DNA of 64,000 bases from Pseudonocardia sp. (GCA_052386505.1 JBQTKB010000017.1:6236-70235), one strand, 5' to 3'; shown: positions 2,398 to 40,986, counted from the first letter of the stretch. The notes: generated by a model from the letters alone, not told the origin. Numbers and translations: made by a program.

Positions 2398-2516
2398 GCC
2401 GCTCAGTACGCTCACGCCTTCCGCTCGCCGGACACGTAGGTACCCGGTGATGCGGGTCCCAACCGCTGACCGCCCGAGCCACGTCAGCGGTCGCACCGCA
2501 CGAGCGACCGGCCTGA

Positions 2517-2542
2517 CCAGCCGACTCAGCTGAGTCGGCTGG
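2517..2542. repeat. Perfect 26-bp palindrome CCAGCCGACTCAGCTGAGTCGGCTGG
   Basis: Read directly. A further partial copy (GCCGACTCAGCTG) follows at about 2547-2559. Confidence 0.9.
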
Positions 2543-2575
2543 CCGGGCCGACTCAGCTGTTACGGACTCGGCGAC

Positions 2576-2620
2576 CCGGCGAGTGGCGGGCCGGCGAGTG
2601 GCGGGCCGGCGAGTGGCGGG
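2576..2620. repeat. 15-bp tandem repeat x3 (CCGGCGAGTGGCGGG) plus a degenerate fourth unit
   Basis: Read directly. Confidence 0.9.
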
Positions 2621-2788
2621 CCGACGGGTGGCATTGCGGGACGATGGATACCGCCAAGGCATGCTCGTGGCCGGCCGCGCGCAGCTCCCTGACCGAACCG
2701 CCGCCGGCCACGCCACCCCTGGCCGAATCGCCGACCGGCACGCCAAGCGCCGCCCCTGGCCGAACCGCCCCGCCGAACGGCACGCCAC

Positions 2789-2853
2789 GTGATCGACGTT
2801 TCGGTGCACAAGCGGATGCTGGGCTTCCGCTTCCACACCAGGACAGCGATCAC
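2789..2853. repeat. 65-bp imperfect palindromic element, copy A (REP/MITE-like)
   Basis: GTGATCG...GGTG..AAGCGGA-9nt-TCCGCTT..CACC...CGATCAC. 48/65 identical to 3814-3878 and 50/65 identical to 40922-40986 by ungapped manual alignment. Confidence 0.85.
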
Positions 2854-3727
2854 GCGACTCGTGGCGGTACCGACAGAGCCGCCTTGATCTCGGCGAGTAC
2901 CTCGTCCGGGCGGTGGTTCAGGTCGTCCCAGCCGAACCTGAGCACCGTCCACCCGGCGAGGACCACGCCGTTCTGCCGTCGGCTGTCCCTCCGCTTCCGC
3001 TCCGCGCTGGAGTGCCACGCCCACCCGTCCACCTCGATGGCGACCCGCGGCCGCGGGAACGCCAAGTCCAGCACACAGCCCTCCAGCGCGTAGCCAAGCT
3101 GCCATCCGGTCACTCCGGCAGCGCGCAACAGCTTGACGAGCAGCCGCTCTGCCTCCGATGCCGCCCGGTCGGCGGCCACGGCGAGCAACGTCGCCGAGGC
3201 CCTGGACCCACGGCGGCCGAGATTGCGACAGTGGGCGCGGTACACCGTCGCGAAACGCACATGCCGCTGCAGCGCCCGGTCCAGGAACTCCCCGCCCTGC
3301 GGACCGAGCGCCACTGAGGCCTCCAGAACCGTCAGCGGCGCATCGGTGACGCATACGGAGCGGACGACCACGAGATCGGTCTCCGCGAGAGTCCGCCGGC
3401 GCACCCGTACACCGGGTTGACGGCCGGGCTGGCGATCCCGGGCAACGGTCACCTCGATCACCTCCGGGCAGCCGTCGACAAGCCCCAGCCACCAAGCCGC
3501 CGCAAGCCCGCTGACCGCCGTACGAGGTCCCGCCCACAGCGCGGCGGCACGCACCCTGGCGGCATCGGCTGGCGGGCGGTCGGTGGCCCGGTACACCTCG
3601 GGTGCAGTCGCTCCCACCGTCCGGTGGTCACCCGGTAGCGCACCGAGCGCGGGCCCAGCCCGGCTGCCGCCGCCTGAGCCATGGAGATCACGCCGTCCTG
3701 GCGTCGCAGCAACTGATCGATGCGCAT
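2850..3727 (-). pseudogene. AbiEi-like N-terminal domain + DUF559 (Vsr-like PD-(D/E)xK) endonuclease, one frameshift near 3600
   Basis: Frame 1 from ATG 3727: MRIDQLLRRQDGVISMAQAAAAGLG...WERLHP. Frame 2 continues EVYRATD...SGLAAAWWLG...DLAFPRPRVAIEVDGWAWH...GWTVLRF. The span is 878 nt, one short of an intact 879. Confidence 0.8.
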
Positions 3728-3813
3728 GTCGCCAGGGTCGGCCACCGGGTCCCAACCCGGGGGCAGAACGGCGAAACAGGCCCGATGATCGACCGGGCGA
3801 TGCCGCCGGCCCA

Positions 3814-3878
3814 GTGATCGGTGTTTCGGTGGAAAGGCGGAACCTAGGAATCCGCTTTTGCACCAAAACACGGATCAC
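3814..3878. repeat. 65-bp imperfect palindromic element, copy B
   Basis: GTGATCGGTGTTTCGGTGGAAAGGCGGAACCTAGGAATCCGCTTTTGCACCAAAACACGGATCAC. Same length and architecture as copy A. Confidence 0.85.
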
Positions 3879-3990
3879 CCGGCGCGGTCGAATAGCCGAC
3901 TCGGCGGCCGGCGGCCAGGCGCGGCGGCCCGGCGGCAGGCCCGGCGGCAGGCGCGGCGGCCCGGCGGCAGGCGCGGCCGGGTGGTCGACA

Positions 3991-5013
3991 CTAGAGGGGC
4001 TCGGGAAAGTGGCAGGCGGCCAGATGACCGTCGGGACCGTGCGGCGTGAGCGGCGGCTCCTCGGCGGCGCACACCGCCTGGGCCTTCCAGCACCGGGTCC
4101 GGAAGCGGCAGCCGGACGGCGGGTGCACCGGACTGGGCACCTCGCCGGTGAGCACGATCCGGCGCCTGGCCCGCTCGGCGACCGGGTCGGGTAGCGGCGC
4201 CGCGGACAGTAGTGCCCGGGTGTAGGGATGGCGTGGCGAGTCGTAGATCGCGTTGCGGGGGCCGACCTCGACGATCTTGCCCAGGTACATCACCGCGACC
4301 CGGTGGCTGATGTGCCGCACCACAGACAGGTTGTGCGCGATGAACAGGTACGCCACGCCGAGCCGCTCGCGCAGCTCCGCGAGCAGGTTCACCACGCCGG
4401 CCTGCACCGAGACGTCCAGCGCGGACACCGGCTCGTCCAGCACCACCAGCCTCGGGCTCAGTGCCAGTGCGCGGGCGATGCCGATGCGTTGTCGTTGGCC
4501 GCCGGAGAACTCGTGCGGGTAGCGGTTACGGTGCTCCGGACTCAGTCCGACGGCAGCCAGCAGCTCGTCGACCCGTGCCTGCTCGTGACCGCCTGGGCCG
4601 CGAGAAGCGTCAGCGGAAGGAGCATCTGAACCGTGGATCTCGAACGGCTCGCCGACGATCCGGTTCACCGTCCAGCGCGGGTTCAGCGAGGCGTACGGGT
4701 CCTGGAAGACGATCTGTAGCCGACGCCGGATCTCGCGCATCCGCCGCGGCGCCACCGCGGCCAGCTCCTCGCCGTCGAACCGGATCGAGCCCGAGGTCGG
4801 CTCGCGCAATCGCAGGATGCACCGACCCACCGTCGACTTGCCGCAACCGGACTCGCCGACCAACCCCAACGTCTCCCCCGGCGCGATGTCGAACGACACC
4901 CCCGACACCGCCCGCACCCGCCCGACCGTGCGCGGCAGGATCGCGCCCCCGCGCACCGGGAAGTCCTTCACCAGGTCCCGCACCGCGAGCAACGGCTCCG
5001 CGTCGGTGGTCAC
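3991..5013 (-). CDS. Oligopeptide/dipeptide ABC transporter ATP-binding protein (OppF-like)
   Basis: Walker [22 protein letters not shown] and the C-terminal oligo_HPY ([12 protein letters not shown]) domain. GTG start 5013 overlaps the upstream stop. Confidence 0.92.
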
Positions 5014-6326
5014 CGAGGCCCCCCGCACTCGTCGGACGCCGGGTTCCGCGCTGCCGGCCCACGCACACTCTCCGCGGCCGCCGCACACTCCGCATCCTGT
5101 GCGGCGGCGGCCGGTGTGCCGCGTCCGCTGGGGGTGGTCGGGCGTCCGCTCGGGGTGGTCGGGCGTCCGCTCGGGGTGGTCGGGCGCCCGCTGGGGGTGG
5201 TCGGGCGCCCGCTGGGGGTGGTCGGGCGCCCGCTCGGGGTGGTCGGGCGCCCGCTGGGGGTGTACGGGTTCGCCGCGAGCTCGGGCCAACGGTGGCAGCG
5301 GGCGGCGTGCCCGGGCTCGACGGTCAGCAGATCCGGCTCCCCTGCGACGCATACTGGCGCGGCCAGCGGGCAGCGCGGCGCGAACGTGCACCCGGGCGGC
5401 AGCCGCAGTGGCGACGGTGGGGCACCGGGGATCGGGGTGAGCGGTCGTCCCACCCGTGACGGGTCGGGCACCGAGCCGAGCAGACCCACCGTGTACGGCA
5501 TCCTCGGTCGGGCGAACAGGGCAGCCGTCTCCGCCATCTCGACGATGGTGCCGCCGTACATGACCTGCACCCGGTCGGCCATCCCGGCAACCACCCCGAG
5601 GTCGTGGGTGATCAGCATGATGGCTGCCCCGGTGTCCTCGGTGACCGCGCGCAGGGTCTCCAGGATCTGCGCCTGCACGGTGACGTCCAGCGCGGTGGTC
5701 GGCTCGTCGGCGATGATCAGCGCCGGGTCGTTGACGATCGCCATCGCGATCATCGCCCGCTGGCGCATGCCACCGGAGAACTCGTGCGGGTAGGCCGCCG
5801 CGCAGCGGTCGGGTTGCGGGATGCCGACCCGGCCCAGGGCTTCGACCGCCACCGCCCGGGCCGCCCGCCGCGACACCCCGCCGTGGTGCGCACGGTAGGC
5901 CTCGGCCAGCTGCCAGCCGACGGTGTAGACCGGGTTCAGCGAGGTCATCGGGTCCTGGAAGATCATCCCGATGTCGTTGCCGCGGACCCGGCGCAGCTCG
6001 GTGTCCGGCCGGCCGACCAGCTCCCGCCCGGCGAACCGGATCGATCCGGTCACCGTCGCGGAGCGCGGCAGCAGGCCGGTCACCGCGGCTGCGGTCACCG
6101 ACTTGCCGCAGCCGGACTCGCCCACCACACCCAGCACCTCACCCGCCGCCAACCGCAGCGACACGCCGCGCACCGCCCGCACCACCCCGTCCTCGGTAGC
6201 GAACCCCACGGAGAGGTCCTCCACCTCCAGCAACGCATCCTCATCCCGACGAATGGCACTTTCGTCGGATAGGTTCCGACGAACAGCGCGTTCGCCGGAA
6301 CCGGTGGATGCGGGCCCGCCGGTCAT
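5010..6326 (-). CDS. Oligopeptide/dipeptide ABC transporter ATP-binding protein (OppD-like) with repeat-containing tail
   Basis: [26 protein letters not shown] and [12 protein letters not shown] overlap with oppC. Confidence 0.92.
5122..5268. repeat. 21-bp tandem repeat x6 plus a partial seventh, encoding (SGRPTTP)n in the OppD C-terminus
   Basis: Unit CG[T/C]CCGCT[C/G]GGGGTGGTCGGG read directly. Confidence 0.92.
6250..6294. repeat. 45-bp palindromic element (family 2), in-frame inside the oppD 5' end
   Basis: CGAATGGCACTTTCGTCG-GATAGGTTC-CGACGAACAGCGCGTTCG. 34/45 identical to 29716-29760. Confidence 0.7.
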
Positions 6327-14298: not shown

Positions 14299-14686
14299 AC
14301 ACGTGCGGGGGCGGTCTGGGGCCTGAGCGGGCACGCGGGTACTCCTGAAGGGGGAAGGGCGGTGGCTCCAGGGTACCCGCACGGTTACCGCGCGCCGTCG
14401 CCGCGGCCCGGTGACCTGCGTCCCGTCCGGCCGTCGCGAGGACGCCGCGGGGCCGCCGCAGGGGCGCCGCGGGGCCGCCGACGTGCGCTGGCCCGCGCCA
14501 CCGACCGCGCACCGCTCACCGCCCCTCCATGATCAACAGCACCACATGGCTGGCGAACCATGATCGAACAGCCACGGCGTGCCGCTCGGCGAACAACGCG
14601 AGAGCGTGCCGCTCGGCCAAGGGGCCGGGGCGAGCGAATCGGCCGATCGAACATCGGTCCGAGGAGGGTGGGCGAGGTCAGGGACC

Positions 14687-29674: not shown

Positions 29675-29713
29675 CGCCCGCACCGCTCGGCTGAGCGCCA
29701 CCCTCACCAGACG

Positions 29714-29762
29714 AACGAACGGCACTTTCGTCGCGTGGTATCCGACGAAAGTGCCGTTCGTT
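29714..29762. terminator. Perfect 20-bp-stem hairpin between convergent whiB3 and groEL (family 2 palindrome)
   Basis: AACGAACGGCACTTTCGTCG-CGTGGTATC-CGACGAAAGTGCCGTTCGTT. Confidence 0.8.
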
Positions 29763-29779
29763 GTGCTGGGCCAGCCAGG

Positions 29780-40921: not shown

Positions 40922-40986
40922 ATGATCCGCGTTTCGGTGCGGAAGCGGATACCAAGCTTCCGTTTCCACACCGGAACGACGACCAC
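40922..40986. repeat. 65-bp imperfect palindromic element, solo copy C
   Basis: ATGATCCGCGTTTCGGTGCGGAAGCGGATACCAAGCTTCCGTTTCCACACCGGAACGACGACCAC. 50/65 identical to copy A with no gaps. Confidence 0.85.

What the first reader, a model, noticed from the sequence alone, without database searches (positions are those of the whole stretch)
2789..3878. AbiEi/DUF559 nuclease gene bracketed by two 65-bp palindromes: candidate REP/MITE-mobilising cassette with no transposase
Seen in sequence: the gene is enclosed by two 65-bp imperfect hairpins (2789-2853 and 3814-3878; 48/65 identical, ungapped). Both have GTGATC...GATCAC ends and an inner (A/G)GCGGA-9nt-TCCGCTT stem. The gene's stop codon is supplied by the end of the downstream hairpin (TGA inside GTGATC). 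A third copy of identical length lies 37 kb away with no gene. Established: REP palindromes flank and are processed by HUH-type RAYT transposases, and DUF559 is a Vsr-like PD-(D/E)xK nuclease. Inference: this could be an analogous system in which an AbiEi-HTH/DUF559 protein recognises and spreads a palindrome family, giving an autonomous 1.09-kb cassette plus solo non-autonomous copies. No target-site duplication was evident.
Basis: partly seen in the sequence, partly recalled or inferred. Interest (0 to 1): 0.8.

Follow-up and report, generated by a model that had tools for sequence, protein, structure and literature searches.

The report
Nuclease gene bracketed by cognate palindromes
A broken nuclease gene in a soil Pseudonocardia belongs to a large, undescribed actinobacterial family of 1.1-kb cassettes, in which the gene sits between two 63-65-bp palindromes that look like its own protein's binding sites, and the whole unit is gained, lost and flipped between housekeeping genes.

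Summary
The window holds three 65-nt palindromes. Two bracket an AbiEi-fold/Vsr-like (DUF559) nuclease gene, which is inactivated here by a 1-nt deletion.

In 83 related loci (49-100% protein identity), 57% carry such a palindrome upstream and 52% downstream. Only one further copy occurs in 463 kb of flanking DNA. A 38%-identical Tsukamurella homologue is bracketed in the same way.

In 28 of 46 downstream palindromes, the TGA of an invariant TGATC box is the gene's stop codon. The four half-sites of a cassette share lineage-specific boxes spaced about one helical turn apart. Spacers drift, and G:T and A:C mismatches are equally frequent. These features point to double-stranded protein-binding sites of the AbiEi-operator type, not REP-like hairpins.

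Sister genomes show the oppF-mshB site empty, with no palindrome. The cassette is inverted at the same site in three contexts.

Most likely this is a compact, selfish, IS-like cassette bounded by its own protein's binding sites. Binding, cleavage and self-mobilisation are inferred, not shown. The REP/MITE-spreading idea is not supported, because solo copies are scarce. I found no published description. Interest is high.

The parts
3814..3878 (.). Upstream palindrome (U), 65 bp. It has two ~30-bp half-sites, each with an outer invariant TGATC box and lineage-specific boxes GGTG.. and ..CGGA.
   Evidence: Equivalent element 37-135 nt upstream of the start in 39/69 related loci. Box structure.
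3730..3813 (-). 84-nt spacer between U and the ATG. This is the presumed own promoter and a short or absent leader. It contains a weak GGGACC-N16-CGAC match to the ECF-type motif seen in relatives.
   Evidence: GGAAC-N15-18-CGT in 31/80 loci against 70/9136 background windows. No sigma-70 consensus here.
2850..3729 (-). AbiEi-fold DNA-binding module (residues ~1-195) fused to a Vsr/EDxHD-like DUF559 nuclease (residues ~195-290). It is a pseudogene here, through a 1-nt deletion at about 3595-3597.
   Evidence: Pfam, PADLOC AbiEi 1e-23, AF2 model pLDDT 88. Foldseek hits 6Y8Q and 3R3P. Frameshift. Intact twin is P0001.
2789..2853 (.). Downstream palindrome (D), 65 bp. Its terminal box supplies the gene's TGA stop (2850-2852).
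   Evidence: The stop is the TGA of TGATC in 28/46 related loci.
40922..40986 (.). Solo palindrome with the same box type, between the glmS stop (41035) and the start of a YjeF/NAD(P)HX-repair gene (40816).
   Evidence: Conserved at the same site in a species with 89% GlmS identity (L103) and absent in three others. Related strains have the canonical GATCAC end.
3879..3990 (.). GC-rich tandem-repeat filler between the oppF stop and U. It is part of the inserted DNA relative to empty sites.
   Evidence: TRF. Empty oppF-mshB sites have only 9-27 nt here. Tandem repeats run at 1.19/kb beside cassettes against 0.29/kb elsewhere.
2497..2788 (.). Tandem-repeat-rich filler between D and the next ORF. 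The gene beyond it differs between relatives, so synteny breaks at this edge of the cassette.
   Evidence: TRF. The right-hand neighbour is mshB in L002, His_Phos_1 in L107, and an unknown ORF plus an AI-2E transporter here.

Best explanation
The 1.09-kb unit is a decayed member of a large actinobacterial family of compact, self-contained cassettes. Each cassette runs: palindrome, then own promoter, then a gene for an AbiEi-type two-domain DNA binder fused to a Vsr/EDxHD-type nuclease, then a second palindrome that usually provides the stop codon.

Shown:
- The palindromes occur almost only beside these genes.
- Each is a pair of ~30-bp half-sites. Each half-site has an invariant outer TGATC box and two lineage-specific boxes about one helical turn apart.
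- All four half-sites of a cassette carry the same boxes, while the spacers drift.
- The constraint is symmetric on both strands.
- The whole unit, with both palindromes, is present, absent or inverted between the same housekeeping genes in related species.
- Putative catalytic residues are invariant in a 26-sequence alignment.

Inferred:
- One AbiEi module binds each half-site, as in the AbiEi and Rv2827c operators.
- The upstream site controls the gene's own promoter.
- The two sites act as the ends of the unit, as transposase-binding terminal repeats do in an insertion sequence.
- The nuclease domain cuts at or near them, perhaps at the invariant box. Host repair then promotes the cassette's spread, inversion and loss.
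- Solo palindromes are extra binding sites or scars.

In this window the gene is dead.

The confidence given is for the whole chain, including self-mobilisation. The binding-site part alone I rate at about 0.7-0.75.
For: Association. Strict palindromes occur upstream in 39/69 loci and downstream in 35/67, with 1 further copy in 462,779 nt of distant flank. Loci scored negative carry variant palindromes. An assumption-free comparison of upstream and downstream flanks is positive in 40/63 loci, where about 3 are expected. A 38%-identical Tsukamurella homologue is bracketed in the same way.

Site anatomy. Arms within a locus are ~70% identical whichever pair is compared, against 42% between loci. 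Within-locus agreement is 0.91-0.97 at positions 14-17 and 0.77-0.88 at 24-28, but 0.47-0.52 in the spacer. G:T and A:C mismatches number 100 vs 90 and 102 vs 101.

Protein. The model matches AbiEi 6Y8Q (E 4e-8) and the I-Bth0305I nuclease domain (TM 0.77). D221, E232, D234 and H239 are invariant.

Precedents. AbiEi and Rv2827c operators are pairs of 23-bp inverted repeats 3 or 13 bp apart. Each repeat binds one monomer, within -1 to -131 of the start (PMC7319586). I-Bth0305I is a homodimer that contacts ~60 bp (PMC3239194).

Unit behaviour. The oppF-mshB site is empty, with no palindrome, in L108 and L109, and filled in the window, L002, L107 and L030. The cassette is inverted at the same site in three contexts. 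At least 14 genomic contexts are occupied. The stop codon lies in the terminal box in 28/46 loci. A promoter motif abuts U. This compact layout is that of insertion sequences (my own knowledge, Mahillon and Chandler 1998).
Against: - No binding or cleavage data exist.
- No target-site duplication was seen, and no pair of near-identical cassettes at different sites. The closest cross-site pair is 81-83% identical.
- Contigs of four soil metagenomes show no excision or inversion junctions.
- Many cassettes sit at the same position across species, so they are mostly inherited vertically.
- The family is absent from 50,697 phage records. It gives one distant hit in 72,556 plasmids.
- No PD-(D/E)xK enzyme is known to transpose DNA on its own.
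- Box identity correlates no better with the wHTH than with other domains.
- Junctions in filled sites lie 110-290 nt outside the palindromes, so the ends of the insert are not sharply defined.
Confidence: 0.45

Rival explanations
1. The gene is an autoregulated stand-alone nuclease and does not mobilise itself. It could be a defence effector, a fused toxin-antitoxin-like protein, or a repair enzyme. U is its operator. D is a second operator, which could allow DNA looping over the 1-kb gene, or a roadblock. The nuclease acts on other DNA. Copies at different sites arose by ordinary duplication, recombination or horizontal transfer of a tight functional unit.
For: The protein has an AbiEi fold, and U has AbiEi-type operator architecture 59-84 nt upstream of the start. 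Cassettes persist at fixed positions across species with conserved catalytic residues. The solo site is conserved in two species, as a regulatory site would be. No recent transposition or excision was seen. An ECF-type promoter motif suggests stress-regulated expression.
Against: It does not explain several observations:
- A full second palindrome is kept at the 3' end and supplies the stop codon in 28/46 loci.
- The unit is gained with both palindromes into 9-27-nt intergenic spacers.
- The cassette is found inverted at the same site three times.
- Rearrangements and tandem-repeat filler cluster at its edges.

In addition, no AbiEii toxin or other defence partner lies nearby.
Confidence: 0.33
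2. The protein recognises the palindromes as single-stranded hairpins and spreads them through the genome as non-autonomous solo copies.
For: The gene is flanked by palindromes, as RAYT genes are flanked by REPs. Solo copies exist in the window at 40922 and in L003 and L103. L045 has a local array of four.
Against: Solo copies are few: one per 64 kb here and one in 463 kb of other flanks. Each cassette has private boxes, not a shared genome-wide family. There is no G:T over A:C bias, and an arm matches its own partner no better than arms of the other palindrome. The protein has no HUH domain.
Confidence: 0.07
3. The palindromes are ordinary transcription terminators, insulators or mRNA-stabilising hairpins. 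They have no relation to the encoded protein and accompany the gene only by linkage.
For: They lie in intergenic positions after stop codons (oppF, glmS and the gene itself). They are predicted to fold stably. Some relatives carry an unrelated perfect hairpin after glmS.
Against: No T-tract is present and no terminator-like site was scored. Mismatches show no strand asymmetry. Conservation is box-wise at sequence level and shared by all four arms, not pairing-wise. The palindromes are about 1000-fold enriched beside one gene family.
Confidence: 0.05

Closest known systems
AbiEi / Rv2827c antitoxin-repressors and their operators (type IV AbiE toxin-antitoxin systems)
   Same: The two-domain AbiEi fold covers residues ~1-195 (Foldseek 6Y8Q, E 4e-8; PADLOC 1e-23). 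The operator architecture also matches: a pair of long inverted repeats with a short gap upstream of the gene's own start. Published operators are 23 bp + 3 or 13 bp + 23 bp. Here each half-site is ~28-31 bp, with a 3-9 bp centre.
   Different: There is no AbiEii (DUF1814) toxin partner. A Vsr-like nuclease is fused to the C-terminus instead. A second, equivalent palindrome sits at the 3' end and carries the stop codon. The whole unit behaves as a discrete insertable cassette.
EDxHD / Vsr-like homing endonucleases (I-Bth0305I)
   Same: The catalytic domain has the same fold (3R3P, TM 0.75-0.77, 25% identity; profile E 1.6e-4). The protein is multidomain, and a homodimer contacting ~60 bp of pseudo-palindromic DNA matches the 63-bp palindrome in size.
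   Different: The gene is not in an intron, intein or phage. The palindromes lie inside the inserted unit, and empty sites contain nothing like them, so they are not a classical homing target. The invariant box is at the outer ends of the site, not its centre.
Insertion sequences
   Same: The unit is compact, with protein-binding repeats at both ends, a promoter next to one end and the stop codon inside the other. It shows presence/absence and inversion polymorphism and occupies many genomic contexts.
   Different: It has no DDE, HUH, serine or tyrosine transposase. No target-site duplication was seen and no recent identical copies. Each end is a full palindrome, not a single inverted repeat.
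REP elements with RAYT transposases
   Same: The gene is bracketed by imperfect palindromes related to occasional solo copies.
   Different: Copy number is low, palindromes are private to each cassette, the constraint is of double-stranded type, and the enzyme family is different.
Tn7 TnsA
   Same: It is the only well-known case of a PD-(D/E)xK restriction-like nuclease that cuts transposon ends (my own knowledge).
   Different: TnsA needs the DDE protein TnsB and other partners, and none is present here. Structural similarity is negligible (Foldseek E > 2).

Membership tests
REP/RAYT system | HUH Y1 (RAYT / TnpA_REP) transposase gene | tested here: not met
   Pfam finds AbiEi_4 plus DUF559/MTES_1575 only. 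The fold matches AbiEi and a Vsr-like nuclease.
REP/RAYT system | Short palindromes dispersed in tens to hundreds of extragenic copies | tested here: not met
   There are 3 copies in the 64-kb window and 1 in 463 kb of flanks of 83 loci. No whole-genome census was possible.
REP/RAYT system | Recognition as single-stranded hairpins | tested here: inconclusive
   G:T and A:C mismatches are equally frequent, and self-arm complementarity equals cross-arm similarity. Both argue against a strand-specific structure. No biochemistry was done.
AbiE type IV toxin-antitoxin | AbiEi two-domain antitoxin fold | tested here: met
   Foldseek 6Y8Q E 4e-8 over 196 columns. PADLOC AbiEi 1.4e-23.
AbiE type IV toxin-antitoxin | Adjacent AbiEii (DUF1814 nucleotidyltransferase) toxin gene | tested here: not met
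   The neighbours are oppF and an ORF with no Pfam hit. The gene tables of related loci show no DUF1814.
AbiE type IV toxin-antitoxin | Operator of paired long inverted repeats at the gene's own promoter, bound by AbiEi | tested here: inconclusive
   The architecture and position fit. Binding cannot be tested in silico.
EDxHD / Vsr-like homing endonuclease | Vsr-like catalytic domain with conserved acidic and His residues | tested here: met
   3R3P TM 0.77. Profile hits to 3HRL (1e-9) and 3R3P (1.6e-4). D221, E232, D234 and H239 are invariant.
EDxHD / Vsr-like homing endonuclease | Recognition site lies in the gene-less allele across the insertion point | tested here: not met
   The empty oppF-mshB sites (L108, L109) contain no palindrome and no TGATC box.
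EDxHD / Vsr-like homing endonuclease | Residence in a group I intron, an intein or a phage genome | tested here: not met
   The cassette is intergenic and chromosomal. There is no hit in 50,697 phage records.
Insertion sequence | Known transposase class (DDE, HUH, Ser, Tyr) | tested here: not met
Insertion sequence | Terminal repeats at both ends, and presence/absence between related genomes | tested here: met
   Palindromes lie at both ends. Filled and empty oppF-mshB sites exist. The window also lacks the cassette that follows the orthologue of its ORF ending at 20031 in L047, L058 and L067.
Insertion sequence | Target-site duplication and recent identical copies at different sites | tested here: not met
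   No duplication is recognisable at diverged junctions. The best cross-site pair is 81-83% identical.

The most novel reading that the evidence does not exclude
These cassettes may be a new class of bacterial mobile element. An AbiEi-type DNA-binding module fused to a Vsr-like PD-(D/E)xK nuclease would recognise its own palindromic ends and cut there, perhaps at the invariant TGATC box or on an extruded cruciform. Host repair would then move, invert or delete the 1.1-kb unit. Actinobacterial Ku/LigD end-joining could explain the messy repeat-rich junctions. Box specificities would diversify so that paralogues in one genome do not cross-react.
Probability: 0.3. Interest if true: 0.85.

Novelty: new variant of a known kind. 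Interest (0 to 1): 0.72.

Why it matters
DUF559/AbiEi-domain genes are among the most common uncharacterised genes in actinomycete genomes, and no function is known for them. They come as a fixed cassette bounded by palindromes that match the gene lineage. That gives a concrete, testable hypothesis for the protein's DNA target, with binding-site sequences predictable locus by locus.

The finding also links the AbiEi repressor fold to a nuclease effector. It may reveal a transposase-free way for a gene to move, and it may explain local synteny breaks. If specificity is set by two short boxes, the family would be a natural library of long-site, programmable DNA binders and nucleases.

Tried and rejected
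- Rfam, at gathering thresholds, found nothing in the window.
- The exact-core pattern scan of 185,579 species genomes gave only 4 hits, 2 of them relevant. The family is too diverged for one pattern.
- A strict Watson-Crick palindrome finder missed most copies, so I replaced it with a scan anchored on the end boxes.
- Chimeric-arm test for insertion into a pre-existing palindrome: outer-outer and inner-inner arm similarity equals self similarity, so there is no signal.
- Flip/flop test of the palindrome centres: mostly ties, with 9 direct and 4 flipped. Uninformative.
- Search for excision or inversion junctions in contigs of soil metagenomes: none found, but contigs drop rare variants.
- Domain-specific covariation between protein and boxes: all domains correlate alike (0.51, 0.61, 0.54), so phylogeny dominates.
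- Search for a second paralogue in about 0.5 Mb of flanks: none.
- Plasmid and phage collections: one distant plasmid hit and no phage hit.
- A possible relic upstream of typA in the window (14520-14660, several TGATC motifs) could not be established.
- The 130-nt spacer in L110 is unclear.
- Literature: no paper combines DUF559 with AbiEi, and none relevant combines it with palindromes.

Full report
**1. The observation**

The window is high-GC actinobacterial DNA. GlmS and OppF orthologues place it in Pseudonocardia, on an 88.9-kb contig.

Three 65-nt imperfect palindromes lie at 2789-2853, 3814-3878 and 40922-40986, all in the same register. Ungapped identities are 48/65, 50/65 and 42/65. 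None is expected by chance. Folding z-scores run from -3.6 to -7.6. No further copy was found in the window.

Between the first two, on the minus strand, lies one gene, with ATG at 3729. Its TGA stop (2850-2852) sits inside the palindrome's terminal box. The product has AbiEi_4 plus DUF559/MTES_1575 domains.

The gene is broken by loss of one G in a GGG run near 3595-3597. Run X1, which matches the window exactly, shows the same deletion. Three other soil metagenomes and seven contigs carry the intact 292-aa gene, P0001.

**2. The association is general**

The protein has more than 1,400 homologues, mostly named as Pseudonocardiaceae. I collected 80 metagenomic loci (49-85% identity) and added genome and MAG loci.

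I scanned for TGATC...GATCA ends 62-63 nt apart with at least 70% pairing.
- A palindrome lies 37-135 nt upstream of the start in 39/69 loci.
- A palindrome lies at or just after the stop in 35/67 loci.
- Both are present in 20/54 loci.
- Only one copy lies in 462,779 nt of flank more than 500 nt from the gene, and it belongs to an array next to a cassette.

Loci scored negative carry bracketing palindromes with other ends, for example GCGATTTGTGTGC...GCACACAAATCGC.

An assumption-free comparison of upstream and downstream flanks detects a shared element in 40/63 loci, where about 3 are expected.

A 38%-identical homologue on a Tsukamurella replicon (Mycobacteriales) is bracketed by TGCGGTGGAT...ATCCACCGCA palindromes.

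In 28 of 46 downstream palindromes, the ORF's stop is exactly the TGA of the TGATC box.

**3. What the palindromes are**

Within a locus the two palindromes share locus-specific internal sequence, whereas different loci differ. The four arms of a locus are about 70% identical to one another, however they are paired (own partner, same side, or crosswise). Arms from different loci are 42% identical.

Conservation varies by position:
- TGATC is invariant.
- Positions 10-13 drift, with within-locus agreement of 0.47-0.52.
- Positions 14-17 agree at 0.91-0.97 within a locus, against 0.28-0.73 between loci.
- Positions 24-28 agree at 0.77-0.88 within a locus, against 0.30-0.38 between loci.
- The boxes lie roughly one helical turn apart.

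G:T and A:C mismatches are equally frequent. There is therefore no sign of selection on an RNA or on a single DNA strand. Pairing as such is not what is conserved.

This is the signature of a double-stranded, two-fold symmetric protein site made of two half-sites of about 30 bp. Wholesale conversion between copies would homogenise the spacers too, so selection on the boxes is the better reading.

**4. The protein**

An AlphaFold model (pLDDT 88) matches AbiEi of Streptococcus agalactiae over residues ~1-195 (E 4e-8). Its C-terminus matches the catalytic domain of the homing endonuclease I-Bth0305I (TM 0.75-0.77), followed by DUF559 3HRL and Vsr. PADLOC AbiEi models score 1e-23. D221, E232, D234 and H239 are invariant in a 26-sequence alignment.

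Two published systems give close precedents.
- AbiEi and Rv2827c bind pairs of 23-bp inverted repeats separated by 3 or 13 bp. One monomer binds each repeat, within -1 to -131 of their own start codon (PMC7319586).
- I-Bth0305I is a homodimer that contacts about 60 bp of pseudo-palindromic DNA (PMC3239194).

The 63-bp palindromes fit both precedents in size and layout.

No AbiEii toxin gene is nearby.

Between the upstream palindrome and the start codon, 31/80 loci carry GGAAC-N15-18-CGT. This resembles an ECF-sigma promoter and ends a few bases before the start. It occurs in only 70/9136 background windows.

**5. Behaviour as a unit**

Relatives share at least 14 genomic contexts, usually short spacers between housekeeping genes.

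At the window's own site, oppF and mshB are 9-27 nt apart, with no palindrome, in a Pseudonocardia MAG (L108) and in P. acaciae (L109). The window, L002, L107/L024 and L030 hold the cassette, together with 110-290 nt of GC-rich tandem-repeat filler outside the palindromes.

The cassette is inverted relative to the same flanks in three contexts: L030, L101 and L079.

The L030 cassette is 81-83% identical to a cassette at another site, but only 63-67% identical to those at its own site.

Single palindromes can be missing. L081 lacks the upstream one that L067 has. L028 lacks the downstream one and 2 kb that L036 has.

The gene to the right of the cassette differs between close relatives. Tandem repeats are four times denser beside cassettes.

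Against recent mobility:
- No near-identical cassettes occur at different sites.
- No target-site duplication was seen.
- Metagenome contigs show no excision junctions.
- The family is absent from phage records and almost absent from plasmids.
- No second paralogue lies within about 0.5 Mb of flanks.

**6. The solo copy**

The third palindrome lies between glmS and a YjeF-type gene and has the same box type as the cassette. It is kept at the same site in a species with 89% GlmS identity (L103). It is absent in three other Pseudonocardia.

Related strains have the canonical GATCAC end where the window has GACCAC. So in this strain both the gene and one invariant box of the solo site are mutated. 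That is suggestive, but it is a single case.

**7. Interpretation**

I rate it likely (about 0.7-0.75) that the palindromes are cognate binding sites of the cassette's own protein, and that the upstream one is an AbiEi-type operator.

The layout is that of an insertion sequence. The unit is compact, a site sits at each end, the stop codon lies in the end box, and the unit is gained, lost and inverted as a whole. The most economical reading is therefore a selfish cassette whose nuclease acts at its own ends. That step is inference only (about 0.3-0.45).

The main rival is an autoregulated stand-alone nuclease that does not mobilise itself.

I found no description of this arrangement in the searchable literature.

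Noticed in passing
window 6242-6294 and 29707-29769: A second, unrelated palindrome family (CGAACGGCACTTTCGTCG-N9-CGACGAAAGTGCCGTTCG). One copy lies at the oppC/oppD junction and the other in an intergenic region.
   Followed up: no
window 2576-2745 and 3902-3977; also L002, L030, L036, L107: GC-rich tandem repeats (15-32-nt units) sit just outside the palindromes. Across 84 loci, tandem repeats run at 1.19/kb beside cassettes against 0.29/kb elsewhere. This filler is absent from empty sites.
   Followed up: partly
L070-L074, L083, L085, L089, L092, L097-L100, L022, L111 and others, between the upstream palindrome and the start codon: A GGAAC-N15-18-CGT motif resembling an ECF-sigma promoter ends a few bases before the start codon. 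It is present in 31/80 loci against 0.8% of background windows, which suggests leaderless, stress-induced expression. A second group of loci shares a GTT(C/T)CCCGAAACGGCC...GATGCTG motif instead.
   Followed up: partly
window 5100-5288: Seven tandem 21-nt units fall in the overlap between the 3' end of the oppD ORF (5010-6326) and the mechanical 5' extension of the oppF ORF (3991-5391). They encode a PTTPSGR repeat near the OppD C-terminus ([14 protein letters not shown] in the oppF reading frame).
   Followed up: no
L104 and L105, about 4327-4375 (P. petroleophila, P. saturnea): Where the window has the solo palindrome after glmS, these species have a perfect ~46-nt hairpin of other sequence. 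It shares the 9-mer AGCGGATAC with the solo palindrome's core. The downstream gene also differs.
   Followed up: no
L045 10924-11456: An array of four palindromes lies downstream of the cassette, made by tandem duplication of a ~310-nt unit that holds two different palindrome variants.
   Followed up: partly
L036 854-2858 compared with L028 and L029: A 2-kb insertion/deletion starts right after the nuclease gene. It includes the downstream palindrome and separates cassettes that are 95% identical.
   Followed up: partly
window 40983: The solo palindrome's non-canonical GACCAC end is specific to this strain. Three soil metagenomes have GATCAC. The same strain also carries the frameshifted nuclease gene.
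   Followed up: partly
window 14520-14660: The region upstream of typA holds several TGATC/CGATCG motifs and a direct repeat of GCGTGCCGCTCGGC. Other Pseudonocardiaceae have a cassette at this position, so this may be a relic, but that is not demonstrable.
   Followed up: partly
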